DNA from: Candidatus Nomurabacteria bacterium
GTDB lineage: Bacteria > Patescibacteriota > Minisyncoccia > Phycocordibacterales > UBA9973
Length of the DNA stretch: 64,000 nt
Reading direction: 5' to 3'
NCBI GenBank assembly: GCA_963842815.1
Contig: CAWJHU010000001.1
Coordinates: forward strand, 264,708 to 328,707
How positions within the stretch are numbered: the first letter of the stretch is position 1; every line of letters starts with the position of its first letter. Shown here one piece after another: positions 36,596 to 51,323 of this stretch. The notes beneath the pieces were generated by a model. It saw nothing but the letters and a program-made list of their open reading frames with translations, was not told the origin of the DNA and did no database searches. A program made the translations under genes and the position numbers.

Positions 36596-37316
36596 CTACG
36601 GAGGCGTTGCCTCCGTAGCCGTCTCCGTGGATGAATTATTCGTCGTTAAAACTTAGCCATTCAAACAGCTCTTTTTTATAATCAGTCAGTTTTTTAAAAT
36701 AAGCGGGAAATTCTGATGGATTTATAATTTTAAATTTTCCATCTTTGTATTCTTCCATGCTTGAATATGGATATTCAAAAACATATTGTAAAAGTTTCGT
36801 TAAAGGTTTGTTTCTTTCTTCTTTCCAATTTTTGTCTATCAATTTAGCGGGATTTAAATGTATATAGGAATATATGTATTTTAAATATCTATCGTTGTTT
36901 ATGTGGATTGATTTAAATACTCCTTCATATAATTTGCCTGTTCGTTCATATTTTTTATTGAAATACATTGAATAACTAGTCATTAATTTATGTATGTATT
37001 TAGAAATTCCATTTTCTGTCTTTTCACGAACAAGAATATGAAAATGATTTGGCATTAAGCAATATGCTCCTATATTAACTATAGTTTTTCCACGATCAAA
37101 ATTTTTGCCAATATTTCTTAACTCTATACTTTTTGTTGTATTACAAATATGCATTAAAAACAAAAAGTGCTCATAATCTTTTTTATCTATAAAAATAACC
37201 CTTTTTTCCGTTCCACGATTATATAAATGATAATACTCGTTTGGAGCGAAAGATTGTTTTCTTAAGGCCATTTGTTGATTATAACAAAAGGGGACTACGG
37301 AGGCAACGCCTCCGTG
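36596..37316 (-). mobile_element. REP-RAYT unit 2: second Y1 (RAYT-like) transposase gene bracketed by REP-C palindromes (ACGGAGGC-GTT/AAC-GCCTCCGT) and by an imperfect ~25-bp direct repeat of the adjacent gene terminus
   Basis: CTACGGAGGCGTTGCCTCCGTAG at 36596-36618 and CTACGGAGGCAACGCCTCCGTG at 37295-37316. ttaggaagttggagttgttgttgtaac (36571-36597) matches ttaagaggtcggagttgttgttgtagt (37325-37351) at 22 of 25 positions. Confidence 0.6.
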
Positions 37317-37322
37317 TCTCAT
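36636..37322 (-). CDS. REP-associated tyrosine transposase (RAYT), IS200/IS605 Y1 family, paralogue of 10106..10810 (likely true start MALRKQ at 37271; the first 17 codons of the track ORF are encoded by the REP-C palindrome)
   Basis: NEYYHLYNRG, HUH motif CLMPNHFHILV, Tyr region YIHLNPAKL; the Tyr-rich C-terminal tail resembles RAYT1. Confidence 0.7.
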   Translation of the reverse strand: MRHGGVASVVPFCYNQQMALRKQSFAPNEYYHLYNRGTEKRVIFIDKKDYEHFLFLMHICNTTKSIELRNIGKNFDRGKTIVNIGAYCLMPNHFHILVREKTENGISKYIHKLMTSYSMYFNKKYERTGKLYEGVFKSIHINNDRYLKYIYSYIHLNPAKLIDKNWKEERNKPLTKLLQYVFEYPYSSMEEYKDGKFKIINPSEFPAYFKKLTDYKKELFEWLSFNDE

Positions 37323-37327
37323 GACTA

Positions 37328-40267
37328 TTAAGAGGTCGGAGTTGTTGTTGTAGTGGTATCTGTTGCTGGCGTTGTAGTTGTATCTGTTGAAGAATTGGTA
37401 TCGGTAGAAGTTGTATCTGAAGGTGGGGTGGTTGTATCTGTACTTTCCGTAGTTGTGGTGCTTCCTACCGTTACGGTTCTAGTGACCGGCGTTGCCGAAT
37501 GTCCGACCGAATCTGTTGCAGTGTAGGTGATGGTGTAAGTGCCGGCAGTGGATGTGTCAACCGAACCGTTTACCACCACAGCCACATCACCTTCTTTTTC
37601 TGTGGCTACTGCTCCGGCTTCATTATAAGTTGCTCCGATATCCAAGACTACTGTTGTTTCTCCGTTGAGAGTAATAACCGGTACATCCACATCTCCGGAA
37701 GAAATCGTTCCACCTGCTAAGGTAGAACTATCTGATGACGGAGGCAACGCCTCCGTAATGGGGGTGGTAGAAATAAGTGCTGTAGCTGGGGCGCATTCTC
37801 CGAGCGTGGTTTTAGCTTCTCCGTTTACTATAGAGAAACAATTTGGATTGCCGTTTGCTTCATCATAAAGAGTTATGCCGGTAGGTTTTTCCGGACTTCC
37901 GATTTTCAATGCATCCACCACTAAAGATTTCATATAAGCTACGCCGTCTTGAACTTTTACCAGCGCGTCGCTGAAGAAAGAAACAGCATCTTGGCCGAGC
38001 GTGTCGGTAATAATTTGGCCTTTATTCAAATTTTCTATTTGCAGATTTAATTCTTTGATGGAAGCCATTAATAATCCATTCACTGATACTTGGTCAATGG
38101 TATTACCCCACATAAATGCCGGGTCAACTTCATCAGCTATAAATCCGATGCGAACTTTAGCCAGAGGAGAATCGGTGCCATAACCATTAACTTCGTTTTT
38201 ATAACGGAAAGTGTGAAGCGGCGCAGTTAGCACCATATTGAGAGCATCGCTATAATCAGTGTAATCTTTGATATCTTGTTTTGTATTTCTGGTGGAAGTT
38301 TGAGTGCCGATAACTATGCCGGATGTATCATTGGCGCTGGAAGGAGCGGAGTCGCTAACTCTCATATTTCCGGCAGAATCTTGCCAAACATAGCCGGCTC
38401 CGCCGGATTTGTTTAGGAAATTAATAGAACCGGCGGCAGGATCGGTAGTATTTATATTTATACCAAGAGTAATTGTTGGTCCGGCTGTTCCGTCACCTAA
38501 ATCGGAAGAGCCGATTTCTAATACGGTGCTTGGTGTTGCCGTCCCGATACCGATGTTGCCTGAAGAATCAACGACCAGATTTTTCTCTCCGATGGTTAAA
38601 GTATCGGCCGTTAATTTGCCGGTAAAACTAGCGTCGCCATTTTCATTCAAAGTAAAAATATCCGCGCCATTTTGGTTTTTAAAAATCAAACCTTCCGGAT
38701 TACCCGGGCCCTCGGTGATTTTAAAGTTGTTGGCAAAAACTACATCGCCGAAGAACTGGGCGGTTGAAGTGGTGCTATTATTGCCGAGCTGAATCTCACT
38801 AGAGGAAATACCTAAACCAACTTGGTAAGAAGTAGGGGTCGTAGTTAAATTGCCATTGGAATCAACATAATATATTGAACCTGGGGTTAAACCTGTCAAA
38901 CCGTCAGCCACTCCGGAAATAATTACCGGCACACTTTGCCCAGATGAGGTGGTAGTTTTTACTATGCCGACAAATTTTCCAGATGAAGAATAATTAATAA
39001 TAGACTCGCCACTAGTACTGCCACCTCTATTATAAATTACCACGAAATGGGAGGAATCAAGATTGGCTATGGAAATATAATTAGTAGTAGTAGTGCCATT
39101 AAATATAACAGCCGCATTAGGGTAAGTAATAGTTGTACCGGAAGAAACTAGTCCTACTATACTGGCACCATAACCACTAATATTGGCATAAGCTACTGCA
39201 AAATGAGTGGCATCAAGCATTGCCACAGAAATATATGAGGTGGTAGCAGAATTAAAAGCAAGAATTGCACCGTAAGTAATAGTCGTACCGGAAATTGAAC
39301 CTGCTCTGGCAGCACCAAAATCGGTAGCATTATACCAAGCCACCACAAAGTGGGTGGTATCAAGCGTTGCCACGGAATTATATGTAGTGGTAGCATTGGA
39401 CGAAAATTGAACAGGTGTTGTGCCGTAAGTAATGGTGGTGCCAGAAATAGAATTCGCTTTGGCCCAACCGTAACCGGTACTGGTAACCGTATAAGCCACC
39501 ACGAAATTATTGGCACCAAAGGCGGCTACTGAAATATTTGAACAGGCAACAGACCCATCAAAACTAGAAGCTGCAGTAAAAAAGGAAAAGGTTGTACCGG
39601 AAGAAATTAATCCCACCCTGGCAGCACCATAATCGGTAGCATTATACCAAGCCACTACGAAACTAGAAGAACTAAGCGTGGCTACGGAAATATATGAAGT
39701 GGCAACAGAAGCCGAAAATTGAACAGCTGCACCGTAGGCAATGACATTACCGCTGGAAACGGTACCTATAATGGCAGTACCATAAGTGGTACCATTATAA
39801 TAAGCTACCACGAAACTAGAAGAACTAAGCGCAGATACGGAAATATAGGTAGTGGTAGTACCATTGAATGTAAGAGGTGAACCATAAGAAATAGTTGTGC
39901 CGGAAATTGAGCCGATAACGGCGAGGCCAAGGCTGTTTTTAGTATCTGCATAAGCCACCACGAAGTGAGTGGAATCAAGTACAGCTGCAGAAAAAGGGCT
40001 TGTTGGGTTAATATCTGTAAATGCAGCAACTACACCATAAGAAGAAATGGTCGTGTCGCCGTTAGTAAGACCCACAATAGCATTGCCATAATTGTTAGTA
40101 CCAGCGGAATAGTTTGCCACAAAATGGGTGGAATCAAGTGCGGCTATGGAATCATAATCATTACTAGAAACAGAATAAAAAGCAACACCTGCGCCGGTAG
40201 TAATAGTTGTACCGGAGACCAGTCCCACCCTAGCGGCGTGAATATTATTCGCATAATAGTTTACCAC
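37328..40267 (-). CDS. C-terminal part of a giant tail-fibre-like surface protein: ~14 tandem ~45-aa beta repeats, intramolecular-chaperone (Peptidase_S74-like) domain, Ig-like (DUF5011/HYR-like) domain, Thr/Ser-rich tail; probably one gene with 40245..43883, split by a 1-nt frameshift
   Basis: Repeats of type YG.A.VG..SGTTITYG...F....TTYISVA.LDS.HFVVAY. Chaperone-like segment NTKQDIKDYTDYSDALNMVLTAPLHTFRYKNE...RIGFIADEVDPAFMWGN...SVNGLLMASIKELNLQI matches the C-terminal intramolecular chaperone of phage tail fibres/endosialidases. In-frame REP-C copy at 37737-37758. Confidence 0.6.
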   Translation of the reverse strand: MVNYYANNIHAARVGLVSGTTITTGAGVAFYSVSSNDYDSIAALDSTHFVANYSAGTNNYGNAIVGLTNGDTTISSYGVVAAFTDINPTSPFSAAVLDSTHFVVAYADTKNSLGLAVIGSISGTTISYGSPLTFNGTTTTYISVSALSSSSFVVAYYNGTTYGTAIIGTVSSGNVIAYGAAVQFSASVATSYISVATLSSSSFVVAWYNATDYGAARVGLISSGTTFSFFTAASSFDGSVACSNISVAAFGANNFVVAYTVTSTGYGWAKANSISGTTITYGTTPVQFSSNATTTYNSVATLDTTHFVVAWYNATDFGAARAGSISGTTITYGAILAFNSATTSYISVAMLDATHFAVAYANISGYGASIVGLVSSGTTITYPNAAVIFNGTTTTNYISIANLDSSHFVVIYNRGGSTSGESIINYSSSGKFVGIVKTTTSSGQSVPVIISGVADGLTGLTPGSIYYVDSNGNLTTTPTSYQVGLGISSSEIQLGNNSTTSTAQFFGDVVFANNFKITEGPGNPEGLIFKNQNGADIFTLNENGDASFTGKLTADTLTIGEKNLVVDSSGNIGIGTATPSTVLEIGSSDLGDGTAGPTITLGININTTDPAAGSINFLNKSGGAGYVWQDSAGNMRVSDSAPSSANDTSGIVIGTQTSTRNTKQDIKDYTDYSDALNMVLTAPLHTFRYKNEVNGYGTDSPLAKVRIGFIADEVDPAFMWGNTIDQVSVNGLLMASIKELNLQIENLNKGQIITDTLGQDAVSFFSDALVKVQDGVAYMKSLVVDALKIGSPEKPTGITLYDEANGNPNCFSIVNGEAKTTLGECAPATALISTTPITEALPPSSDSSTLAGGTISSGDVDVPVITLNGETTVVLDIGATYNEAGAVATEKEGDVAVVVNGSVDTSTAGTYTITYTATDSVGHSATPVTRTVTVGSTTTTESTDTTTPPSDTTSTDTNSSTDTTTTPATDTTTTTTPTS
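37737..37758. repeat. REP-C palindrome copy in-frame within the giant gene (encodes ..TEALPPS..)
   Basis: gacggaggcaacgcctccgtaa. Confidence 0.65.
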
Positions 40268-43200
40268 AAAATGAGCAGTATCGAGTGCATCTACAGAAGG
40301 GTGATAGCAAGTAACACCACCACCAGGCGAAAATATAACACCTGCGCTGGGTAGTAATAGTTGTACCGGAGACTAGTCCTACCCTAGCGGTACCGTAATT
40401 ACTGTTGTCATCATAAACCATCACGAAATGAGCGGAGTCAAGCTTGGCCAGAGAAAAATTTTGTATACTGGTGGCAGTGGAAGAAAGAGATGCCGTGGGA
40501 AAGGAAAAGGTTGTACCGGAAGAAATTAATCCCACCATAGTGTAACCTTTGTAATCGCTAGTAGTAGTATTAGAAAAACCCACCACAAAGTGGGCAGAAT
40601 CAAGCGCAACTACGGCAATATAAGTAGTAGTAGTGCCATTAAATATAACACCTGAACCAAAAGAAGAAATAGTTATATTGCCATCAGTAACACCCACCTT
40701 AGCCGTACCCCAATGATTGGCAGTATCATCATAAGCTACCGCAAAATAAGTAGAGCTAATCGCGGCTACAGAAATATAACTATTGGTAGTAGAATTGAAA
40801 TTTTTAATTCCGCCAAAAGAGGAAATAGTTACAGAACCGTCAGTAGTACCCACTATAGCATTGCCGTAAGTGCTTGCGTCATTATAAGCCACTACGAAAT
40901 GAGTGGAATTAAGTGCAGATACGGAAATACAAGTAGTGGTATTAGTATTGAAAATAAAAGGTATACCAAAAGTAATAGTTGTACCAGAAACTGAACCAAC
41001 AATAGCTGTACCATAACTATTGGAATCAGTATAAGTTACCACGAAATGGGAGGAATCAAGCTTGGTTGCGTAAGTAGAAGTTACTCTAACGAGAGAAGGA
41101 ATTTTAGTGATTGAGCTTGAAGATATTCCTCCAGGAAAGGCACCACCACTCTTCTTTACTTGATTGTTAATATATTGGACAACATCTCCGGCATTTAGAT
41201 TTTCGCCGGCGGTAAAGTTTTCGGTGAGTTGTTTAAGATTATCCCAACTCATAACGCCAGAACCGTTGGTGGTAAGAGCTTGTCCGCTTGTGCCGTCAGC
41301 GCTAGGCAAAGTATAGGTAGTTGAACCTGCGGCAGCAGCGGCAGTCAGCCCGACATATCCGGAACCTGAACCATCTAAGCGAAGAGCTCCATTCACATCC
41401 AATTTACTCCCTGGCGTCGTTGTTCCAATCCCCACATTGCCCGCGTAGGTTCCTGCTCCGAAGAAACTGGCGATGGTCGTTCCGCCACTGTTTCCGCCTT
41501 TGATGTAAACTGCGTCACCAGAACCAGTCCCGCTGGTGCTGGTAAGAGAAAGAGTGCTTCCTCCCGCTGTGCCACCGTAAATAATAGGAGTAGTGGCAGA
41601 GGTAGTGAAGGTTGGAGTGACAATGGTCGGTGAACCAGAAAAGACTACATTGGTACTTGTTGTTCCAGCTGTCCCTGTTGCACTGGTAAGGTAATTTAAT
41701 TTGGTAGAAGTGGAAGTCAAAGCCACCGCTTCATTCACATTCGGAGAAGTCAAAGTTTTGTTGGTTAAGGTCTGGGTTCCATCTATGGTAACTACGCTGG
41801 TGGCAGTATTTGTCGGAGTGGTAATTTTCAAGGTTCCGGTGCCGAGAGTGAGTATGCCGGAAGTATGGGTCAAAACTACATTGGAGTTGGCATAATTAAT
41901 GACCGCCCCGCTGGCCAGAAACAAATCGGAGAAATTGTGGGTGATATCTCCCAAAGGCGCGCCGTCATCCGAGGTTGGAGATATTTCGGTGGTGATGGTG
42001 GGGGTGGTAAGGACGGGACTTTCCAAAAAAGCAAAAGTTTTTCTAGCAGCGCCGGTAGTAATAGTTCCATAATATTTATCTGTTAAAAATTCCACTGCTC
42101 CAGCTTCTGGGGCCGACAGAAGCGTTCCGCTGGTAAATTTTAACGGAGAGCTTCCGGCTGTTGCCGTGCCGGCTCTTAAATCAAGAGTTGCTGTGGGCGC
42201 AGAAGCCCCCAAACCGATGCCCACATTGCCATTTGTTCCAACCAAACGAAAATTTGTGGTGCCACCACTGCTGGCAATTGCCAAGCCACCGTCTTCCGGA
42301 GCAGTAATATTTCCTCTGCTGGTCGGATAACCGAAATATATTGCTCCCGCTTGGTCAAGAACGGCATTGCGGGTATATACATCATAGCCTCCATTCACTG
42401 TGATATCTCCGTTGGTAGTAATTCCACCATTCACATCCAAAGTATCGCCCGGATTGGTTGTTCCGATGCCCACATTGCCAGCCTTAAAATAAATGCCGGT
42501 GGTAGAAGAGGGGCCGATCCAGGATTCAGCCGGAGTGATGAGAGGATTGATTTGATTAAAGGTGTTGGAGGTATTTGTATAGACTCCATTGGTTACCGAG
42601 CCGGCATTTCCGGAAATACTTGAATCGGTAAAGGCGAATTGTTTTCTGGCCGCACCGGTAGTAATGGTTCCATAAAATTTATCGCTGTTGAATTCTACCG
42701 CCCCAGCCTCGGGGGCTGAGAGAAGAGTTCCGTCAGTGAATTTCAGTGGCGCAGTTCCTGCTGAAGCTGTGCCTGCTTTCAAGTTAAGAACTGCGGAAGG
42801 GGAAGGAACGCCGACGCCTACATTGCCCGCAGAATTAACCACAAGCTTTGCCGTGCCGTCTGTTATTAAGGATAACATTCCCGCTCCGTCCCCTCCGATG
42901 CCGGTGGTTCCGTCGGAAGCAATTCCGAATGAGGTTCTGTTAATGGTAGGATTATTATCTGCCGCAAATTGTCCAGTAGTAACAAAATTGCCTCCGCCGG
43001 TTATATAGGCCACTCTGGTGGATGCGCTATTCCATTCCATAATAGAATTGCCGTCAGTGCTGTTGCTTCGAACCACCAGAGCGGTAGGTCCGATGCCCGT
43101 CCCGCTTAAATCGCGAAACCATAAGCCGGTGCCCGGATAATCTTTTGATTCTACGCTTAGAGCGCTTGTTGACCCGGTAGGAATAGTAATGCCATTTTTA

Positions 43201-43883
43201 AAATCTTGGGCCTGAGAAGTTGCGCCTGTAATCGAACCATCCGCCAGCAGAACGCCGGACACATCACTACCGGCGATCGTATCCCAAGCGGGAATAGCAC
43301 CATTAGTGCCATCACCTGTCATCCTAAGGAATTTTTTTGTAATGGTTGTGTTTGGAGTTAGAAGGGTAGTGGTATTTGTGTCCGATTGATATGGAATAGA
43401 GCCAAGCAGGGTAGTGGGATTTCCGCCAATGATATTCAATGCGGTTTCGGACACTACAGCAGCAGGAACAGCGCCAAGTTTTTTGCGTGGAACCATTTCT
43501 CCATCGCTTTCAATATTCACGCCCAAATAAAGTGTTTGGTTGAAATTAACTCCGGTCAGGGGAGTAACTTCTCCCAACATCACGCTAAAGAGTCCGCTGG
43601 TCACTTGCACTTTATCTCCTCCGGTCCTGGTTTCTGTCCACAAAAGATGTGCGGGTGAATCGCTTAAAGTCGGGTCATTATACAATTTAAATTCCATACT
43701 GTAAGTGCCGTTTGGAACAGCTATCCCGAGACTGTTGGTAAGTTTACCCTGATAATTTATTTGCTTATTTATCTGAGCGGAAACATTTGTGAATGGGGAA
43801 AGTATAAAAATTAAAATAAACAAACAACAAATTAAAAAATTTATTAAATAAAATCTTTCTTTTTTTGTAAATAAAATCTTCAT
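40245..43883 (-). CDS. N-terminal part of the giant tail-fibre-like surface protein (signal/anchor, internally duplicated ~200-aa modules, start of the ~45-aa repeat array)
   Basis: N-terminal MKILFTKKERFYLINFLICCLFILIFILSPFTNVSAQ; duplicated blocks AGTAPLKFTDGTLLSAPEAGAVEFNSDKFYGTITTGAARKQFAF / AGSSPLKFTSGTLLSAPEAGAVEFLTDKYYGTITTGAARKTFAF. The last ~45 aa (QRRCYIFAWWWCYLL...) are out-of-frame sequence after a 1-nt insertion near 40343. Confidence 0.6.
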   Translation of the reverse strand: MKILFTKKERFYLINFLICCLFILIFILSPFTNVSAQINKQINYQGKLTNSLGIAVPNGTYSMEFKLYNDPTLSDSPAHLLWTETRTGGDKVQVTSGLFSVMLGEVTPLTGVNFNQTLYLGVNIESDGEMVPRKKLGAVPAAVVSETALNIIGGNPTTLLGSIPYQSDTNTTTLLTPNTTITKKFLRMTGDGTNGAIPAWDTIAGSDVSGVLLADGSITGATSQAQDFKNGITIPTGSTSALSVESKDYPGTGLWFRDLSGTGIGPTALVVRSNSTDGNSIMEWNSASTRVAYITGGGNFVTTGQFAADNNPTINRTSFGIASDGTTGIGGDGAGMLSLITDGTAKLVVNSAGNVGVGVPSPSAVLNLKAGTASAGTAPLKFTDGTLLSAPEAGAVEFNSDKFYGTITTGAARKQFAFTDSSISGNAGSVTNGVYTNTSNTFNQINPLITPAESWIGPSSTTGIYFKAGNVGIGTTNPGDTLDVNGGITTNGDITVNGGYDVYTRNAVLDQAGAIYFGYPTSRGNITAPEDGGLAIASSGGTTNFRLVGTNGNVGIGLGASAPTATLDLRAGTATAGSSPLKFTSGTLLSAPEAGAVEFLTDKYYGTITTGAARKTFAFLESPVLTTPTITTEISPTSDDGAPLGDITHNFSDLFLASGAVINYANSNVVLTHTSGILTLGTGTLKITTPTNTATSVVTIDGTQTLTNKTLTSPNVNEAVALTSTSTKLNYLTSATGTAGTTSTNVVFSGSPTIVTPTFTTSATTPIIYGGTAGGSTLSLTSTSGTGSGDAVYIKGGNSGGTTIASFFGAGTYAGNVGIGTTTPGSKLDVNGALRLDGSGSGYVGLTAAAAAGSTTYTLPSADGTSGQALTTNGSGVMSWDNLKQLTENFTAGENLNAGDVVQYINNQVKKSGGAFPGGISSSSITKIPSLVRVTSTYATKLDSSHFVVTYTDSNSYGTAIVGSVSGTTITFGIPFIFNTNTTTCISVSALNSTHFVVAYNDASTYGNAIVGTTDGSVTISSFGGIKNFNSTTNSYISVAAISSTYFAVAYDDTANHWGTAKVGVTDGNITISSFGSGVIFNGTTTTYIAVVALDSAHFVVGFSNTTTSDYKGYTMVGLISSGTTFSFPTASLSSTATSIQNFSLAKLDSAHFVMVYDDNSNYGTARVGLVSGTTITTQRRCYIFAWWWCYLLSPFCRCTRYCSFCGKLLCE

Positions 43884-43886
43884 TTA

Positions 43887-44267
43887 CTAATTTATTGCCT
43901 CTGGGTCGGGGGAGAGCGTTTTTTTTCCTTCCTCCAAAATTACTTTGCTATTTTTATCATGAAAATAAATTCCAAGCAGAAAAATACCCAGAAAAATAAT
44001 TCCGGTCAATATCAAAATTTTTTGGGTTCTTTTTCGGGAGAAAAATTCTCCAACGGCAAATTTTCTATGACGGATTTTTTGCTTAAAAATGTAATCTTTT
44101 ATCTCTTCTTCGGTGGTGAACCAATTGCCTCCGACTTTTTCGCCTTTTATCTCTCCTTTGCGGATTAAAGCGCTTAAATAGTCCGAATGATATCCGGTAA
44201 TCCTGGATGCCTGGCTCAGAGAGATAACTTTTTTAATATTTTCCATTTCTACAAAGATATATAACAA
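43887..44267 (-). CDS. small HTH (excisionase/MerR-like) DNA-binding protein with C-terminal TM helix
   Basis: KVISLSQASRITGYHSDYLSALIRKGEIKGEKVGGNWFTTEEEIKDYI is HTH-like; hydrophobic ILILTGIIFLGIFLLGIYF follows. Alternative start MENIKK at 44246. Confidence 0.4.
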   Translation of the reverse strand: MLYIFVEMENIKKVISLSQASRITGYHSDYLSALIRKGEIKGEKVGGNWFTTEEEIKDYIFKQKIRHRKFAVGEFFSRKRTQKILILTGIIFLGIFLLGIYFHDKNSKVILEEGKKTLSPDPEAIN

Positions 44268-44393
44268 CTTCTCGGGTACCCGATATGCAGAAAAATGGAA
44301 TCTCGGCTATCCGATATTTATTTATACCCTTATATTATAGTGGATAATGCACAGCATATCAACTAGTTATCCACAGATGGAGATTATTCTTAT

Positions 44394-45707
44394 CTAAGCC
44401 TTATTTTGTTGAGTTTTTTGCCTAGTTTTTAGGAAAAATCCTATTAAAAATAGTATTAACAAAATGACAATTATGTAAATATAGTAATCAATGTAAATAT
44501 TACCATAGGGCTCTTCAACCACTGGCGGTATGTTTTCTCTGACATTCAGCAATCCTTCGCTTATTATTGTTTGCACATCATCTTTATATCTAAAAATTTC
44601 CACGTTGTAAGTCCCGGCTTTTCCCAACGGGGGAATGACGCTCTGATAGCGTCCGCTGTCCAGATTAAATGAAAATAAATATTGTCCGAAGAGTTTTCCG
44701 TTTTCATCAGTGATGGTCATAAAGTCGTCCGGCAAAGTTTTTGAATTTGTATCAATGACAGTATCTTTGTCATTGTCTATGGTAATAGCTTTGGCGCTCA
44801 CAAGCGGTTCAACCAGCTGATTGTATTGGTGCGCGAAAAAAGTTCCGGTAATAAAAACTTGAAGCGGTATCACTTCCGCCGGTTTTTGCGGAGGAATTGC
44901 CTCCGGAGAATAAGCCACCTGGGAAGCTCCCACTCCCACCGAAAAATTTCCTTTGGTATCTCTGGCAAATAATACATAAAAATATTTTTTGCCTGGGATG
45001 ACATCTTTATCCAGAAATTTTTCTGTAGAACCCTCATAGATTAATTTTCCCCAAAATGGGTCTCCATAAAAACGGTCTTCATGCCGCATAATGCGGATGT
45101 AGGAAAAATTATTATCGGGCGGATTCTGCCAGGTAATGGTGATGCCGGAAATATCCGCCGAAGTTTTTACATTGCGGGGACTCAGCGGGAAAATCGTATT
45201 GACTAAAAATTTTGTGAAGAAATAGATCGGCTGGGAAATATTAATTTTTCCGCTGGTGTCCCGGCTTTCAATGGTAAAATAATACATCGTTCCCGCCTTG
45301 AGATTTATTATTTCCATTTTGTGCTCTCTGGCAAAAATAACACTTTCCAGAGTTCCTTCCTGAACTTCGGTGGTTTGGCCCCATTTTATGGTACTAATGG
45401 TGCTGAGAGAACTGTCCCAGGAAATAACTGCGCTTGTAAAGCTTGGTTCTATGGACAAATTATATAGATAGATATTTTGCTCCGGCAATATGGTCATTCC
45501 GCCCGGAGGAGAAGGAGGAGTGGGGGCGGCACAATCCACAGGACAGCTGAGCGCCGTTTCGCCGGGTTCACATAGGCCGTTATTATTGCATCCGCTTACT
45601 CCCAAATTTACCTGAATATCGTCTGAAGCCGCAAAAACAGGGACAATATTAGCCCCCAGTAAAGATGCCAAAAAAAAGACATAAATAATTTTTCCGAATC
45701 TCTTCAT
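44394..45707 (-). CDS. secreted protein with Cys-rich N-terminal region, two fibronectin-III-like domains and C-terminal TM anchor
   Basis: Signal peptide; ...SAVISWDSS...YYFTIESRDTSG and ...ITITWQNPPDNNFSYIRIMRHED...YFYVLFARDTKGN FN3-like units; C-terminal IYIIVILLILFLIGFFL. Confidence 0.45.
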   Translation of the reverse strand: MKRFGKIIYVFFLASLLGANIVPVFAASDDIQVNLGVSGCNNNGLCEPGETALSCPVDCAAPTPPSPPGGMTILPEQNIYLYNLSIEPSFTSAVISWDSSLSTISTIKWGQTTEVQEGTLESVIFAREHKMEIINLKAGTMYYFTIESRDTSGKINISQPIYFFTKFLVNTIFPLSPRNVKTSADISGITITWQNPPDNNFSYIRIMRHEDRFYGDPFWGKLIYEGSTEKFLDKDVIPGKKYFYVLFARDTKGNFSVGVGASQVAYSPEAIPPQKPAEVIPLQVFITGTFFAHQYNQLVEPLVSAKAITIDNDKDTVIDTNSKTLPDDFMTITDENGKLFGQYLFSFNLDSGRYQSVIPPLGKAGTYNVEIFRYKDDVQTIISEGLLNVRENIPPVVEEPYGNIYIDYYIYIIVILLILFLIGFFLKTRQKTQQNKA

Positions 45708-45719
45708 AACTCTTCTATC

Positions 45720-46499
45720 TTATAACGTTATGGCAGTTACAACAATCGGAGCGGAATAATTTCCTGCCGGCTGAATATGATTGGCTCCTGATTCCGCGCG
45801 AAAACGAACAGTCACCGCATCTCCGCTGGGGTCGGTTCTAACTGTTTTTTGAGCTATTATTTTCGGCGAAAGAGAAAGTCCGTCCCAGCATTTGCTTTGA
45901 GTTTCTTCCGTTCCAGTATTGCATGTTGAACTATTATTATTTAAAAAACGAGCCGAGGTATCTGTTCCTTCCGGAGAAAATCCAAAAGCCGATGTGGAAG
46001 GGTCAATGGAAAAATTATAATCAGGGTCCGGACTGCTTGCTGGCACATAATCCGCAAAAGAATTGGAACCGGAAGTAAGCGCCGGGGTGCTATCAGTTTT
46101 TATATTCATGCTATAGCCGGCGGAGTTGTCCGTGTTTATCTGCCAAACCAGTGTTCCTTCGCTGGCCTCGCCGTTTATTCCGCCCATTGGGGCCAATACC
46201 AAATCGGAAGGAATGGTAACAGCAATATAACTTTCCTGCATCTGCCAAAAACCTGCATGCATATAATAGGTGTTGCTGTTTGAATTTCCGGTGCCAACTT
46301 CTCCGGCCGTATCGCCAAGCTTATATATTGAACTGGAAGAATCTGCTCCGCCGGCATTGATGGAATCGGAAGTTATTTTATAGGTGTTGCTGTGCATGGC
46401 TTCTGCCAGGACTAGGTAAAAAGGCAGCATTAAGAAAAGAATAAGTGAAAAAAGTACGGCACTTCTTTTTTTGTAAAAAGGCATAATAATTTTTTTCAT
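45720..46499 (-). CDS. secreted beta-rich protein, paralogue of 47500..48342 (WxL-like candidate)
   Basis: Signal peptide; shared block GTLVWQINTDNSAGYSMNIKTDSTPALTSGSNSFADY (compare SSSWTVKTNSTNGYTLAVKASASPALVSGGNSFADY in the paralogue). Confidence 0.45.
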   Translation of the reverse strand: MKKIIMPFYKKRSAVLFSLILFLMLPFYLVLAEAMHSNTYKITSDSINAGGADSSSSIYKLGDTAGEVGTGNSNSNTYYMHAGFWQMQESYIAVTIPSDLVLAPMGGINGEASEGTLVWQINTDNSAGYSMNIKTDSTPALTSGSNSFADYVPASSPDPDYNFSIDPSTSAFGFSPEGTDTSARFLNNNSSTCNTGTEETQSKCWDGLSLSPKIIAQKTVRTDPSGDAVTVRFRAESGANHIQPAGNYSAPIVVTAITL

Positions 46500-46503
46500 T
46501 TTC

Positions 46504-47481
46504 TTATGGCTGTTTTTTTCTTAACTCAAAACGTGTCAAGAAATAGTAAGCGAGAGCGACAAGGAAAGCGAGAGAGACAAATCCCACAAGAAGTATCTTC
46601 CATGGAAGCACCCAGAAGGATAAATTTACATCCTGATATAAATCGCTGTATCCTTTATTCAAGTGAAGACTAGCCGTGTAATAGCCAAGGCTAAAACCGG
46701 CGGTCCAGTCCACATCTCTGTATCTGGTGGAATCCGGAAGCACGAAATAGGCATCTACCGGCAGTGAACTGACAACTTTGCCGAACATATTTTTGATGGT
46801 TATCATTCCGTAGGGAACAAGATGGACATTTCCTGTATTTTTATAGGCGATTTCAAATCCTTCCGGCCTTGCGTCGTAAAAAGCTTTCTGCGGTCCGATC
46901 AGTTTGAAACTTTCAACATTTCCTTCTTCTTTTCCTTCGCCGTTTATTTTAAGCAAAAAAAGCGAACCGATTCTGGAAATAATTCTCGTTTGCCCCTGCA
47001 CTTCGGCGGAGCCTCCGCTTGTCAAAGTGTCCGGTTCATTGGAAACAATAAGCGCTCCATAATATCCCCGCGGTTCGGCATTTTTGGGAACGGAGATGGT
47101 CACCGGAATGACAATTTTTTCTCCCAGCTCCAGAGAAAATTCGCTGATTTCAGGAACAATAAAATCTTTCAGAGAATATGGACTATGGGTATCGCCCAAA
47201 AGCACCACTGGCTGTTTCGGGTCGTCGGTTCCCACAAAATCTTCGGTGGTAAGTTTAAATTTAACGGTTTTATTTATACGGTTGGTGATGGTAATATTTT
47301 TCACCATGTTCTCTCCGGGATTCAAAAACACTTCCGTCTTTCCGGGTTCTACCACGAAATCATTTTGAGCAACCATATTTGTTTTGCTTTTTTGGAAAGC
47401 CGATGAATACCGAGGCGCAACAACACCACCAAGAATGATAGATATGGCGATTATATATAAAAATTTTTTCATATTAGACAA
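46504..47481 (-). CDS. secreted protein with C-terminal TM anchor (architecture like DUF916/DUF3324 CscA-type cell-surface proteins)
   Basis: 325 aa, signal peptide, beta-rich body, C-terminal ILLVGFVSLAFLVALAYYFL + RFELRKKQP. The DUF916 assignment is by architecture only. Confidence 0.4.
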   Translation of the reverse strand: MSNMKKFLYIIAISIILGGVVAPRYSSAFQKSKTNMVAQNDFVVEPGKTEVFLNPGENMVKNITITNRINKTVKFKLTTEDFVGTDDPKQPVVLLGDTHSPYSLKDFIVPEISEFSLELGEKIVIPVTISVPKNAEPRGYYGALIVSNEPDTLTSGGSAEVQGQTRIISRIGSLFLLKINGEGKEEGNVESFKLIGPQKAFYDARPEGFEIAYKNTGNVHLVPYGMITIKNMFGKVVSSLPVDAYFVLPDSTRYRDVDWTAGFSLGYYTASLHLNKGYSDLYQDVNLSFWVLPWKILLVGFVSLAFLVALAYYFLTRFELRKKQP

Positions 47482-47499
47482 AAGATAAACAGCTCCGAA

Positions 47500-48342
47500 T
47501 TATAATGCCGTAGCCGTGGCGGTAATGGTGGCAGTATAAGTTCCGGAAGGCGCGTAAACGGAATTTTGCGCTGCGGCAAAACAAATTGTCGTTGCGATGC
47601 CGGCATTAGGAGTAACGGCAGCTCTTGTGGCGATTGTATGGTTGGACATAGAAAACCCCGCATAATTTTGAGAGCCATCCGGTACGCCGGCTGAACCGCA
47701 GGATGCGGCTGTTCCCCATGTTCCCGTATCCGTGTCGGTACCGTAGGCTGAATATCCGAATTCTTTATTCCCAACGCCTACGCTCCAGGTTGCGGGCGTA
47801 CCTCCCGCATGATAATCGGCAAACGAATTGCCACCGCTTACCAAAGCCGGAGAAGCGGATGCTTTTACCGCCAGGGTATATCCGTTGGTTGAATTTGTTT
47901 TAACCGTCCAGGAAGAAGAACCGATTGCCGAGTCGCTGGCTACGCCGATATTAGGGGCCATCAAAACATCTGCGCCGGCCGAAATGGTAATGCCTGAAGT
48001 AACATCAAGAGTGACATGAACATCATTGGTGCCGGCGAACTCCGCGGTAACAGTTATGTCTCCTACCACTGTTAAATCTGTTCTTGCGGCCGTTAATACA
48101 TCATCGCTCCATTTTACAAATAAATAACCGGCATCCGGTACGGCTGTTACCTCTGTTCCATCTCCACCTGCAGTTACCGTTTGCGGATTACTGCCGGTAA
48201 TGGAACCGCCGGTTGTTGGAATATAGGTCAGTGTGTAGGAAGTGGCGGCTACCACAAGCGGATAAAATTGAACCACAAAAAAAGTAAAGAGAGCCGCAAA
48301 ACCCAGCACAATTTTTTTATTAAAATTTATTTTTATTTTCAT
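47500..48342 (-). CDS. secreted protein with Listeria-Bacteroides-type repeat (Flg_new-like) and WxL-like C-terminal region; paralogue of 45720..46499
   Basis: Signal peptide; LTYIPTTGGSITGSNPQTVTAGGDGTEVTAVPDAGYLFVKWSDDVLTAARTDLTVVGDITVTAEF repeat; shared C-terminal block with 45720..46499. Confidence 0.45.
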   Translation of the reverse strand: MKIKINFNKKIVLGFAALFTFFVVQFYPLVVAATSYTLTYIPTTGGSITGSNPQTVTAGGDGTEVTAVPDAGYLFVKWSDDVLTAARTDLTVVGDITVTAEFAGTNDVHVTLDVTSGITISAGADVLMAPNIGVASDSAIGSSSWTVKTNSTNGYTLAVKASASPALVSGGNSFADYHAGGTPATWSVGVGNKEFGYSAYGTDTDTGTWGTAASCGSAGVPDGSQNYAGFSMSNHTIATRAAVTPNAGIATTICFAAAQNSVYAPSGTYTATITATATAL

Positions 48343-50398: not shown

Positions 50399-51323
50399 AT
50401 GGTAATGATTGAACTAAAAAGAATAATAAAAGCGGGGTTCCTAAACTTTACCAGAAGCGGAATTATTTCTTGGGCGGCTGTCCTGGTGGTTACCATTACG
50501 CTTTCGGTTATTACCACGATTATTTTACTGCAGGCGGTTTTGCATTTTTCCTTGAACCAAATAAAAGACAAAGTGGATGTGACAATTTATTTTAATGTGG
50601 GCGCGCCGGAAAGCAGTATTTTGTCTTTAAAACAATCTCTGGAAGGTTTGCCGGAAGTGGCGCAGGTTTCCTACACCAGCGCGGATGATGCCCTGAAACT
50701 TTTCCGAGAGCGCCATCAGGGCGATTACTCCACCATTGCCGCTTTGGATGAGATACAAAATAATCCACTGGGAGGCTATCTCAATGTTAAGGCTAAAGAA
50801 ATTTCTCAATATGAAAGCATTGCCAATTTTCTGAAGTCGGAACAATGCGCTTGTTTCAGGCTCCACTTCCATCATAGATAAGGTAAATTATAATCAAAAT
50901 AAAATGGTTATAGACAGATTGAACAACATAATATCCGGCGCGCAAAAATTGGGTTTTCTGATAACGCTCATTTTGGTAATTATTTCCATCATTATTACTT
51001 TTAACACCATTCGGCTGACCATTTTTATTTCCAAAGAAGAAATAGGAGTAATGCGTTTAGTGGGGGCAAGCAAAATGCGAGTACGCGGGCCTTTTATGGT
51101 GGAGGGTGCTATTTATGGGATTATTGCCACAGTCATAACTCTGATTCTTTTCTTCCCGCTTACCATTTATCTGGGTCATAATATGGCCAGATTTTTAGGA
51201 CTCAATATTTATGATTATTATCTTTCTAATTTATTTCAAATTTTCATAATTATTTTATTATCAGGGGTTCTTTTGGGCGTGATTTCCAGTTTCTTTGCAA
51301 CTAGGAAATATTTAAATAAATAA
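50399..51323 (+). CDS. ftsX: cell-division permease FtsX, interrupted by a frameshift near 50840 (track ORFs 50399..50881 and 50904..51323)
   Basis: First ORF gives the N-terminal TM and periplasmic domain (..PEVAQVSYTSADDALKLFRERHQGDYSTIAALDE..NPLGGYLNVKAKE). Second gives the C-terminal 3-TM region (TFNTIRLTIFISKEEIGVMRLVGASKMRVRGPFMVEG). The -1 frame across 50840-50905 reads ..SNNALVSGSTSIIDKVNYNQNKMV.. and joins them. Confidence 0.6.

What the first reader, a model, noticed from the sequence alone, without database searches (positions are those of the whole stretch)
44394..48342. Four co-directional secreted proteins resembling a WxL/DUF916-type cell-surface complex cluster
Four minus-strand genes with 4-19 bp spacers encode four proteins. 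Two are secreted ~260-280 aa beta-rich paralogues sharing the block W-x-[IV]..N..GY[ST][LM].[IV]K..[ST]PAL[VT]SG.NSFADY. One is a 325-aa protein with signal peptide and C-terminal TM anchor. One is a Cys-rich, double FN3-like protein with C-terminal TM. This composition parallels the Firmicutes csc/WxL clusters (WxL proteins + DUF916/DUF3324 anchored protein + accessory), but there is no canonical WxL motif, LPXTG signal or sortase. It may be a divergent surface-complex system in a CPR-type envelope.
Basis: inference. Interest (0 to 1): 0.55.

Follow-up and report, generated by a model that had tools for sequence, protein, structure and literature searches.

The report
Compact donor-strand pilus operon in CPR
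Four tightly packed genes of a Paceibacterota (CPR) genome most likely build a thin surface fibre: a shaft subunit, a tip subunit, a membrane-anchored chaperone and a membrane anchor. The set is a stripped-down relative of the recently described Pam pilus, and its chaperone turns out to be a distant homologue of the WxL-interacting protein of Firmicutes.

Summary
Four minus-strand genes (A 47500-48342, B 46504-47481, C 45720-46499, D 44394-45707) sit 18, 4 and 12 bp apart and all encode proteins with signal peptides. A and C share a C-terminal domain; B and D end in a transmembrane helix.

The order A(1-3 copies)-B-C-D is complete in 48 of 66 species-representative Paceibacterota loci.

- **B:** two Ig-like domains plus a TM helix. 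Its family profile matches E. faecium WxLIP (E 6e-11), and its N-domain matches DUF916 (hhalign 96.9%).
- **A and C:** not detectably WxL proteins. The modelled A domain resembles donor-strand-exchange pilins (Csu, TasA-like, Fim/Pap).
- **C family:** every member tested hits NCBIfam PamT, far below its cut-off.
- **A and D orthologues:** both start, right after the signal peptide, with a conserved V-x-V-x-L-x-V strand. C lacks it.
- **D:** otherwise a Cys knot, two FN3 domains and a TM helix, like PamR.

Best reading: an usher-less, chaperone-assisted donor-strand-exchange pilus with tip C, shaft A, chaperone B and anchor D. It is a compact variant of the Pam pilus. No filament has been observed.

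The parts
47500..48342 (-). Gene A: proposed shaft pilin (280 aa). Signal peptide, Flg_new_2 domain, conserved donor-like strand, pilin-like C-terminal domain.
   Evidence: ORF. 578 homologues, most about 215 aa and lacking the Flg_new insert. 1-3 tandem copies in related loci.
48034..48237 (-). A residues 36-103: Flg_new_2 (InlB B-repeat-like) domain, inserted between the signal peptide and the donor-like strand. Seen only in this genome's A.
   Evidence: Pfam PF18998 E 2.6e-13, 50.2 bits against a cut-off of 23.6. Orthologues go straight from the signal peptide to xTDxVVVTLDV. Poorly modelled by AF2.
47998..48030 (-). A residues 105-115 (TNDVHVTLDVT): conserved N-terminal extension, the proposed donor strand.
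   Evidence: In 72 A-type sequences: V58/I7, V62, T63, L69, V70, then G69. No strand is assigned and confidence is low to moderate in the monomer model. Its role as donor strand is inferred.
47503..47997 (-). A residues 116-280: pilin-like beta-sandwich domain shared with C; one Cys pair (215, 254).
46504..47481 (-). Gene B: membrane-anchored two-domain WxLIP/PapD-like protein, the proposed pilin chaperone.
   Evidence: ORF. 757 close homologues and 5963 clusters at E<=1e-3 in the representative library. AF2 model: signal helix, two beta-sandwiches, C-terminal helix.
46966..47382 (-). B N-terminal Ig-like domain, homologous to DUF916 / WxLIP_PGBD. It includes a low-confidence loop (model residues 147-169) followed by the invariant S-R-I-G-S-x-F strand.
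   Evidence: Profile against PDB EfmWxLIP1, E 6e-11. Pfam PF06030 in 34/52 members. hhalign N-domain 96.9%, E 1.5e-10, with shuffled controls at E>0.25. Invariant columns.
46615..46965 (-). B second Ig-like domain, in the position of DUF3324.
46528..46623 (-). B C-terminal transmembrane helix with a positive cytoplasmic tail.
   Evidence: Kyte-Doolittle 2.43 over model residues 283-314, then RFELRKKQP. AF2 helix 290-318.
45720..46499 (-). Gene C: PamT-like subunit (259 aa), the proposed tip. Signal peptide, conserved 55-aa N-terminal module, pilin-like domain. It lacks the V-x-V-T-L-x-V extension.
   Evidence: NCBIfam NF058579 PamT E 1.1e-11, 44.6 bits against a cut-off of 240. All 41 family members hit it. 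Confident hhalign alignment with A starts only at A 117 / C 91.
46236..46400 (-). C residues 34-88: conserved N-terminal module with three S-x-x-Y-K-[IL]-like repeats (MQSxTYKIxSDS..SSSxNYKLxDTLGE..SNSxNYxxHAGFWQ).
   Evidence: Alignment A4, many invariant columns. Function unknown.
44394..45707 (-). Gene D: PamR-like membrane anchor or terminator (437 aa).
   Evidence: ORF. Follows C in 48+ loci with a median spacer of 2 bp.
45597..45623 (-). D residues 29-37 (DDIQVNLGV): conserved N-terminal strand, the same pattern as the A extension. Proposed to plug the last pilin.
   Evidence: 54 D orthologues: I32/V9, V34/I15, L51, V45/I7, then G33 and C50.
45531..45590 (-). D residues 40-59: four-Cys module C-N-N-N-G-[IV]-C-E-x-G-E..C-P-x-D-C.
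   Evidence: C50, C51, C49 and C50 of 54 conserved.
44886..45449 (-). D residues about 87-274: two tandem FN3 domains.
   Evidence: Pfam fn3 E 7.8e-7, and 25/31 orthologues. Profile hits titin 2e-14 and neogenin 8.5e-12 with 2-3 stretches.
44415..44507 (-). D C-terminal transmembrane helix.
   Evidence: Kyte-Doolittle 2.86 over residues 401-431, then KTRQKTQQNKA.
43887..44267 (-). Gene E: small HTH_17/excisionase-like protein with a C-terminal TM segment. It is syntenic but probably a separate transcription unit; role unknown (possibly a regulator).
   Evidence: Pfam HTH_17 1.5e-4 and TIGR01764 7e-4, both below their cut-offs. TM 80-104. Detected in 37 of the 66 loci, directly after D in 32 with a median spacer of 176 bp. 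Best promoter-like site at 44362-44334.
37328..43883 (-). Genes F+G: giant secreted repeat protein ('tail-fibre-like'), apparently one gene split by a frameshift near 40,340. Associated with the cluster, not shown to be part of the fibre.
   Evidence: Frame analysis. Orthologues after E are 965-1422 aa, and the L001/L002 orthologue (997/976 aa) carries Peptidase_S74. The Pam paper reports a tail fibre-like gene next to pam operons.

Best explanation
The four genes encode a minimal, usher-less surface fibre assembled by donor-strand exchange. It is a compact Paceibacterota variant of the CPR Pam pilus.

1. All four proteins are exported by Sec.
2. B stays in the cytoplasmic membrane through its C-terminal helix. 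Its two Ig-like domains face outwards. It holds newly exported subunits by lending a strand to their incomplete beta-sandwich, as PapD-type chaperones do and as AlphaFold predicts for WxLIP with WxL.
3. C has the acceptor domain but no N-terminal extension, so it can only accept a strand and starts the fibre as its distal tip.
4. A carries the extension TDxV-V-V-T-L-x-V. Each incoming A inserts it into the previous subunit and displaces the chaperone strand, which makes the shaft. In this genome A also carries a Flg_new_2 domain ahead of that strand, so each shaft subunit would display an extra domain, as the N-terminal domains of PamA and PamB do.
5. D carries the same kind of strand at its mature N-terminus but has no pilin domain. 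It can only donate, so it would end growth and tether the fibre to the membrane through a Cys-knot, two FN3 domains, a further beta-rich region and a TM helix.

Shown here: gene content, paralogy, topology signals, folds, the B-WxLIP and C-PamT homologies, the conserved strands and the synteny. Inferred: strand exchange, order of assembly, and the existence of a filament.
For: - **Operon and synteny.** 18/4/12-bp spacers. A(1-3)-B-C-D is complete in 48 of 66 GTDB species loci and 14 more are truncated but consistent, with B identity from 80% down to 37%.
- **Tip.** C and all 41 relatives tested hit NCBIfam CPR_pilus_PamT (best 6e-14). A relative in L003 matches over the whole model, 7-238 of 241. 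C lacks the extension.
- **Donor strand.** A near-invariant V-x-V-T-L-x-V sits right after the signal peptide in 72 A-type proteins, and [IV]-x-[VI]-[ND]-L-x-[VI] sits right after it in 54 D-type proteins. The segment is unstructured in the A monomer model.
- **Anchor.** D has two FN3 domains, a C-terminal TM helix and an N-terminal strand, which is the description of PamR.
- **Match to the published system.** The Pam paper describes membrane-anchored PapD-like chaperones, a tip subunit without a linker strand, an FnIII anchor and a neighbouring tail-fibre-like gene, in a pilus whose two main pilins were solved by cryo-EM.
Against: - No filament, complex or expression has been observed for this cluster.
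- The PamT hit is far below the family cut-off (44.6 against 240 bits).
- No sequence-level link to PamA, B, C, D, E or R could be tested.
- The B model has only moderate confidence (pLDDT 70, pTM 0.42), and generic Ig-like folds (factor XIII, RbmA, MSP) score as well as the chaperones do.
- Most A orthologues are single-domain. The nine-strand N-terminal domain that defines PamA and PamB is absent, and the Flg_new_2 domain here is a different fold.
- No ATP synthase genes were found among the window ORFs scanned with NCBIfam (not every ORF was scanned).
- The conserved N-terminal strands could simply be the first strand of each protein's own fold.
- The homologous WxLIP system is described as a static wall-bound complex, not a pilus.
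Confidence: 0.65

Rival explanations
1. A WxL/Csc-type static cell-surface complex. B (a WxLIP homologue) binds and stabilises the secreted proteins A and C at the cell surface by strand complementation. D is an accessory anchored protein. Nothing polymerises.
For: B is homologous to WxLIP/DUF916 and structurally closest to 9i1y among two-domain matches. The gene order paralogue-WxLIP-paralogue plus an anchored small protein, with a nearby HTH gene, matches real WxL loci L072-L080. A typical WxL cluster has one WxLIP, a small WxL and a large WxL with N-terminal extra domains, which recalls C and the Flg_new-bearing A.
Against: A and C are not detectably WxL proteins and have no W-x-L motif. 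C hits PamT. The A fold matches polymerising pilins. The same conserved N-terminal strand on A and on the membrane-anchored D, and its absence from C, is hard to explain without subunit-to-subunit strand donation. A is often tandemly duplicated. This rival may also not be truly distinct, since WxL proteins themselves have a mobile N-terminal strand.
Confidence: 0.2
2. A TasA-like or archaeal-bundling-pilus-like fibre that self-assembles by donor-strand exchange without a chaperone. B would be an unrelated envelope protein that merely travels with the genes.
Against: No Pfam or PDB sequence match to TasA/camelysin. B lies between A and C with 4-18 bp spacers in essentially every locus. B has the chaperone-like fold and is homologous to a protein predicted to donate a strand.
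Confidence: 0.07
3. Independent secreted or anchored envelope proteins (adhesins or wall-associated proteins) with Ig-like folds. They are co-transcribed but form no defined assembly.
Against: Fixed order and tight coupling hold down to 37% identity for B. The strand motif is shared between A and D. There are specific homologies to PamT and WxLIP.
Confidence: 0.05

Closest known systems
Pam pilus of Candidatus Mycosynbacter amalyticus (Saccharimonadia, CPR); Troman et al. 2026, bioRxiv 10.64898/2026.03.03.709456
   Same: It is CPR-specific and all components are Sec-exported. The pilins have a truncated Ig-like C-terminal domain that receives a strand from the next subunit. The PapD-like chaperones are held in the membrane by a C-terminal TM helix. 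The tip subunit (PamT) lacks a donor strand. The anchor (PamR) has an FnIII pair, a TM helix and an N-terminal strand. No usher or envelope-spanning machine is present, and a tail-fibre-like gene lies nearby. C is a sequence homologue of PamT.
   Different: - Only four genes are present: one chaperone instead of PamC+PamD, and one shaft pilin type (1-3 copies) instead of PamA, PamB and PamE.
- The shaft pilin is normally single-domain with an N-terminal extension, like classical fimbrial subunits, and lacks the nine-strand N-terminal domain. Here a Flg_new_2 domain takes that position.
- D has an extra Cys-knot and a third beta-rich region.
- The lineage is Paceibacterota, which the paper does not mention.
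- No ATP synthase genes were found among the window ORFs scanned.
- PamT similarity is far below the NCBIfam cut-off.
WxL / Csc cell-surface protein clusters of Firmicutes (WxLIP = DUF916+DUF3324+TM helix; small and large WxL proteins; LPXTG protein); PMC10599100, PMC9772566, PMC1534035
   Same: B is a true, remote homologue of WxLIP in its DUF916 domain, with the same overall build: signal peptide, two Ig-like domains and a TM helix. The gene order secreted paralogue - WxLIP - secreted paralogue is the same, and an anchored protein accompanies it. [quoted passage not shown]
   Different: A and C have no WxL motifs and no detectable WxL-domain similarity. The anchor is a TM helix rather than LPXTG and sortase. 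The host is a CPR bacterium, not a Firmicute. WxL clusters are described as peptidoglycan-bound complexes, not fibres. The DUF3324 match is weak (19.9%).
Chaperone-usher pili of Gram-negative bacteria, especially archaic Csu/CupE (SCPU) and alternate CFA/I types
   Same: The pilin-like fold of A is closest to CsuA/B, CfaE/B, the FimH pilin domain and CupE. The B fold matches EcpB, CfaA, FimC, CsuC and SafB. The N-terminal extension has alternating hydrophobic residues. The logic of tip first and terminator last is the same.
   Different: There is no outer membrane and no usher. The chaperone is membrane-anchored instead of soluble. There is no sequence similarity. The terminator is a membrane protein, not a pilin.
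TasA fibres, archaeal bundling pili and related DUF1102/cannulae fibres
   Same: These are donor-strand-complemented beta-sandwich subunits in organisms without an outer membrane, and they appear among the structural matches.
   Different: Those fibres have no dedicated chaperone or anchor genes of this kind. No sequence match was found.

Membership tests
Pam pilus system (CPR) | A PamT-family tip subunit | tested here: inconclusive
   NCBIfam NF058579 hits C at E 1.1e-11 but with 44.6 bits against an equivalog cut-off of 240. All 41 relatives hit it. That makes C a homologue, not an equivalog.
Pam pilus system (CPR) | Pilins with a truncated Ig-like C-terminal domain completed by a strand donated from the neighbouring subunit | tested here: inconclusive
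Pam pilus system (CPR) | [quoted passage not shown] | tested here: not met
   Most A orthologues are about 215 aa, with the signal peptide followed directly by the strand and the C-terminal domain. Window A has a 68-aa Flg_new_2 domain instead.
Pam pilus system (CPR) | PapD/FimC-like chaperone retained by a C-terminal TM helix (PamC/PamD) | tested here: met
Pam pilus system (CPR) | RbmA-like anchor: tandem FnIII, a C-terminal TM helix and an extra N-terminal strand (PamR) | tested here: met
   Two FN3 domains, a TM helix at 401-431 and a conserved N-terminal strand. Architecture only; D was not modelled.
Pam pilus system (CPR) | Sequence homology to PamA, PamB, PamC, PamD, PamE and PamR of M. 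amalyticus | not testable with these tools
   Those sequences could not be retrieved. No NCBIfam model other than PamT matched. PDB entries 25PZ and 25QA did not appear in any search.
Pam pilus system (CPR) | Restricted to CPR, with a conserved neighbourhood of a tail fibre-like gene and ATP synthase | tested here: inconclusive
   Most of the 66 loci carry CPR (Patescibacteria) names; a few record titles name non-CPR taxa. A tail-fibre-like gene follows in the window and in several loci. No ATP synthase was found among the window ORFs scanned.
WxL / Csc cluster | A WxLIP protein (DUF916 + DUF3324 + TM helix) | tested here: met
   DUF916: profile against EfmWxLIP1 E 6e-11, Pfam PF06030 in 34/52 relatives, hhalign 96.9%. 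DUF3324 is weak (19.9%). TM helix present. Window B alone does not reach Pfam significance.
WxL / Csc cluster | At least two proteins with a C-terminal WxL domain (dual W-x-L motif) | tested here: not met
   No Pfam WxL hit for A, C or 50 A-family members. hhalign of A and C against WxL gives 1.2% and 0.5%. No W-x-L motif. No WxL chain among the structural hits.
WxL / Csc cluster | LPXTG protein and sortase-dependent anchoring (common, not universal) | tested here: not met
   No C-terminal LPXTG or TLxTC motif in any window ORF of 80 aa or more. D is anchored by a TM helix.
Chaperone-usher pili | Outer-membrane usher | tested here: not met
   No large beta-barrel gene lies in or next to the cluster. 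None is called in the two fully annotated related loci L001/L002, and no extra gene fits between the tightly spaced A-D genes in the others.
Chaperone-usher pili | Two-domain PapD-like chaperone and Ig-like subunits with an N-terminal extension | tested here: inconclusive
   Fold-level resemblance only. No sequence similarity.
TasA / camelysin fibres | Peptidase_M73/TasA domain | tested here: not met
   No Pfam or PDB sequence hit. Only weak structural resemblance.

The most novel reading that the evidence does not exclude
The CPR pilus chaperone and the Firmicutes WxL-interacting protein would be one ancient family of membrane-anchored, strand-donating chaperones of bacteria without an outer membrane. 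The family here has about 6,000 clusters at 50% identity. On this reading the long-enigmatic WxL/Csc clusters are not static wall complexes. They would be relatives of an usher-less donor-strand-exchange assembly system, in which the mobile N-terminal strand plus Pro-rich linker of WxL proteins acts as a donor strand. The four-gene Paceibacterota operon (tip, shaft, chaperone, anchor) would be close to the minimal form of that system.
Probability: 0.3. Interest if true: 0.8.

Novelty: new variant of a known kind. Interest (0 to 1): 0.58.

Why it matters
CPR bacteria are tiny episymbionts that must attach to host cells, and most of their envelope proteins are unannotated.

- **Wider distribution.** If this operon builds a fibre, the Pam-type pilus extends well beyond Saccharimonadia and Microgenomatia. 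It reaches at least 48 Paceibacterota species representatives here, and the chaperone family counts thousands of clusters.
- **A minimal parts list.** The operon has one tip, one shaft, one chaperone and one anchor, with no usher and no ATPase. That is convenient for reconstitution.
- **How domains are added.** The Flg_new_2 insertion shows how display domains can be placed ahead of the donor strand. This suggests a route from single-domain pilins to the two-domain PamA/PamB type.
- **A link to WxL clusters.** The chaperone's homology to WxLIP (DUF916) connects the CPR pilus to the WxL clusters of enterococci, listeriae and lactobacilli. Their mechanism has been unclear since 2006, and the link offers a concrete, testable idea for it.
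- **Annotation.** All four proteins are currently labelled 'hypothetical'.

Tried and rejected
- **Direct searches with the window proteins.** Pfam and NCBIfam gave no WxL, DUF916 or DUF3324 hit. The DUF916 link appeared only with a family profile.
- **Sequence searches against the PDB.** Single sequences of A-D gave nothing useful. Profiles of the A and C families gave nothing at E<=10.
- **AFDB search.** The afdb50 fold library was not available, so B could not be compared with predicted WxLIP, PamC or PamD models.
- **Locus search with the divergent alignment.** The search for related loci with A3 failed for lack of a conserved stretch. A1 worked.
- **Other Pam models.** NCBIfam scans of the B, A and D families and of distant loci found no Pam model other than PamT.
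- **Pam paper supplement.** It holds no sequences, so no direct comparison with M. amalyticus PamA-E or PamR was possible.
- **WxL domain hypothesis for A and C.** Rejected at profile level. The only resemblance, a C-terminal G-x-Y-x-x-x-I strand, is not significant (E 0.04).
- **D against WxLIP.** The hhalign hit (85%, 13 columns) is a short spurious motif match.
- **ATP synthase neighbourhood.** None was found among the window ORFs scanned with NCBIfam.
- **Promoter and terminator scan.** It found no promoter-like site upstream of A and no terminator after D. The only strong promoter-like site lies in the D-E gap. Consensus scans may not apply to CPR.

Full report
**Observation.** The spacers are 18, 4 and 12 bp.

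A and C share a C-terminal domain of about 170 residues (BLASTP E 2e-22, 32% identity; profile-profile 99.7%).

A Kyte-Doolittle scan finds an N-terminal hydrophobic segment in all four proteins. It finds a C-terminal TM segment followed by basic residues only in B and D. D has four N-terminal cysteines and two FN3 domains. The window contains no W-x-L motif in A or C, no C-terminal LPXTG signal and no sortase signature.

**Context.** The window is a housekeeping region of a CPR genome, with rodA, folD, secDF and gatA further upstream of the cluster. Two tRNA-Thr genes, prfB, ftsE, ftsX and pyrG lie directly next to it. Exact copies of A, B and C occur on a 338-kb NCBI contig. Close relatives are named Nomurabacteria, Paceibacterota or Patescibacteria and are all annotated 'hypothetical protein'.

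**Conservation.** I scanned one genome per GTDB species with a B alignment, which returned 66 loci. I then searched their ORFs with the window proteins.
- 48 loci carry the complete order A(1-3 copies)-B-C-D.
- 14 loci are cut by contig ends but consistent with that order.
- 4 loci differ.
- B identity falls from 80% to 37% across this set.
- Median spacers are 17, 7 and 2 bp for A-B, B-C and C-D.
- A small HTH-plus-TM protein (E) was detected in 37 loci, directly after D in 32 of them at a median of 176 bp. A giant 'tail-fibre-like' protein (F) follows in 6 of the 66.

The block is therefore a conserved operon, with E and F as loosely attached neighbours. A profile search of 1.84 billion representatives found 5963 B-family clusters at E<=1e-3 and 493 at E<=1e-30, typically 300-335 aa long. 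More distant loci (L003/L004) hold two B-like genes interleaved with three pilin-like genes. One of these matches PamT over its whole length.

**Protein B.**
- *Model.* AlphaFold2 (pLDDT 70) gives a signal helix, two beta-sandwich domains and a C-terminal helix. Loops at 80-97 and 147-169 have low confidence.
- *Sequence homology.* B alone hits no Pfam family. A profile of 52 diverse relatives hits EfmWxLIP1 in the PDB at E 6e-11. 34 of those 52 proteins hit Pfam WxLIP_PGBD (DUF916) individually.
- *Direct test against real WxLIPs.* I fetched eight WxL loci from Firmicutes plasmids and ran hhalign. The full length gives 98.6%, E 1e-15, over 299 columns. The N-domain alone gives 96.9%, E 1.5e-10. 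The second domain alone gives only 19.9%, E 1e-3. Column-shuffled controls give E 0.15-0.58.

B is thus a remote but real homologue of WxLIP in its DUF916 domain. It has the same overall architecture and a chaperone-like fold. The WxLIP paper reports that AlphaFold predicts a disordered WxLIP hairpin to become a strand that completes the WxL beta-sandwich (PMC10599100). The low-confidence loop of B, followed by the invariant S-R-I-G-S-x-F strand, aligns to that part of WxLIP. That it is the donated strand is my inference.

**Proteins A and C.** The AF2 model of A is confident for residues 110-280 (pLDDT mostly above 90) and poor for the N-terminal part.
- *No WxL relation detected.* No WxL chain appears in those lists. 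There is no Pfam WxL hit, and hhalign against WxL proteins gives about 1%.
- *C and PamT.* C hits NCBIfam 'CPR-type pilus protein PamT' (E 1.1e-11, 44.6 bits, cut-off 240). So do all 41 relatives tested.

**The Pam pilus.** That hit led to the preprint describing the Pam pilus of Ca. Mycosynbacter amalyticus.
- Cryo-EM showed PamA and PamB filaments held together by donor-strand exchange.
- The operon also encodes PapD-like chaperones with a C-terminal TM helix (PamC, PamD).
- It encodes a tip subunit without a donor strand (PamT).
- It encodes an RbmA-like protein with two FnIII domains, a TM helix and an extra N-terminal strand (PamR), proposed to end and anchor the fibre.
- A tail-fibre-like gene is a conserved neighbour.

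The composition of the window cluster matches this description item by item.

**The strand motif.**
- Most A orthologues are only about 215 aa. Immediately after the signal peptide comes [AV]-T-D-x-V-[VIL]-V-T-L-x-V-[TD]-x-G-I-[TS]-I, and these positions are nearly invariant in 72 sequences.
- In 54 D orthologues the mature N-terminus is [IV]-x-[VI]-[ND]-L-x-[VI]-x-G-C-N-N-N-G-I-C-E. It stays conserved even where the rest of D has diverged to 23-30% identity.
- C has no such strand. Its confident alignment with A starts at the first strand of the shared domain, and a different, highly conserved 55-residue module precedes it.
- In the monomer model of A the strand is not part of the fold.

So there is an acceptor-only subunit, a donor-plus-acceptor subunit and a donor-only membrane protein. 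A tip-shaft-anchor fibre assembled by donor-strand exchange predicts exactly this pattern. In this genome A has acquired a Flg_new_2 domain (Pfam E 2.6e-13) exactly between the signal peptide and the strand. This gives the N-domain-linker-C-domain layout of PamA and PamB with an unrelated N-domain. The same protein is seen in an independent assembly.

**Mechanism proposed.**
1. All four proteins are exported by Sec.
2. B, anchored in the membrane, caps the groove of new subunits.
3. C nucleates the fibre.
4. A subunits add at the base, each inserting its strand into the previous subunit.
5. D inserts its strand last and ties the fibre to the membrane through its Cys-knot, FN3 stalk and TM helix.

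No usher or ATPase is needed. The parts, their folds, their homologies and the motif pattern are shown. The exchange, the order of assembly and the fibre itself are inferred. I put this reading at 0.65.

**Rivals.**
- *Static WxL-like surface complex (0.2).* It has real support through B and the gene order. It does not explain the pilin-like fold, the PamT homology or the shared strand on A and D. It may also not be a true alternative. Small WxL proteins from the fetched loci carry a short conserved strand and a Pro-rich linker right after their signal peptide. PMC9772566 describes that N-terminal strand as mobile.
- *Chaperone-free TasA-like fibre (0.07).*
- *Unconnected envelope proteins (0.05).*

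The last two fit the synteny and the B data poorly.

**Comparison and novelty.** The cluster works like, and is distantly related to, the Pam pilus. It fails one defining feature, the nine-strand N-domain of the major pilins. It has a reduced gene set and lies in a lineage that the paper does not mention. It shares a homologous WxLIP-type protein with WxL clusters but lacks WxL domains, LPXTG and sortase. I found no paper in the held library that links DUF916/WxLIP to pili or to CPR. I file it as a new variant of a known kind.

The most novel reading not excluded is that WxLIP and the CPR chaperone form one ancient family, and that WxL clusters themselves assemble by donor-strand exchange (probability about 0.3).

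**Limits.**
- The sequences of PamA-E and PamR could not be obtained.
- The AFDB library was unavailable.
- Only two structures could be predicted and none as a complex.
- The B model has moderate confidence.
- All functional statements rest on computation.

Noticed in passing
window 37328-43883 (minus strand), junction near 40,340: ORFs F (1212 aa) and G (979 aa) look like one secreted repeat protein of about 2,190 aa split by a frameshift. The repeat '..LDSAHFV..Y.D..YGTA.VG.VSGTTIT..' continues in the next frame, and the last ~35 residues of F are Cys/Trp-rich nonsense. Orthologues are single genes of 965-1422 aa, and the L001/L002 orthologue carries a Peptidase_S74 domain.
   Followed up: partly
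window 50399-51323 (plus strand), junction near 50,870: ftsX is split into two ORFs (160 and 139 aa) by a frameshift, whereas the orthologue in L001 is one 306-aa gene. With the F/G case, this suggests indel errors in the assembly, or pseudogenes.
   Followed up: partly
window 48034-48237 (A residues 36-103): A Flg_new_2 (InlB B-repeat-like) domain is inserted exactly between the signal peptide and the conserved strand of the shaft pilin. None of the 72 A-type proteins in the related loci has it. The nearest Flg_new sequences are in unrelated multi-repeat proteins (for example P0242).
   Followed up: partly
loci L072-L080 (Firmicutes plasmid WxL clusters): Small WxL proteins carry a short conserved beta-like strand right after the signal peptide (SNVSVSFVG, ADITFALD, GTIEFTPN, ATIKFLPG and others). 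In most of them a Pro-rich linker follows before the WxL domain. This layout looks like an N-terminal donor extension. The gene order is [LPXTG]-WxL-WxLIP-WxL(large)-[HTH].
   Followed up: partly
loci L003/L004 4683-10703; L069 4288-7891; L070 4937-7813: More distant clusters have two or three tandem B-like genes. In L003 these are interleaved with three pilin-like genes, one of which matches PamT over its full length. A 468-aa protein follows with a weak 'mosaic adhesive trimer' fibre N-domain hit. These larger versions resemble the multi-chaperone pam operon.
   Followed up: partly
window 43887-44267 and 44334-44362 (minus strand): A small protein with an excisionase/HTH_17-like N-terminus and a C-terminal TM segment was detected in 37 of the 66 loci, directly after D in 32. 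The best sigma-70-like site of the region (TTGATA-17-TATAAT) lies in the D-E gap. It may be a membrane-tethered regulator. WxL loci also have an HTH gene nearby.
   Followed up: no
window 36636-37322 (minus strand): The 228-aa ORF just downstream of G has a weak hit to REP-associated tyrosine transposase (NCBIfam E 7.5e-10, below cut-off).
   Followed up: no
window 45531-45590 (D residues 40-59): The four-Cys module C-N-N-N-G-I-C-E-x-G-E-x(4-6)-C-P-x-D-C is almost invariant in D orthologues and is duplicated in some (L048, L052, L053, L060, L061). It has no family assignment, only a weak DsbD_N hit.
   Followed up: no
window 46236-46400 (C residues 34-88): The N-terminal module of the PamT-like protein is the most conserved part of C. 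It has three S-x-x-Y-K-[IL]-like repeats ending in H-A-G-F-W-Q-M-Q. Its structure and role (adhesive tip or self-cap) are unknown.
   Followed up: no
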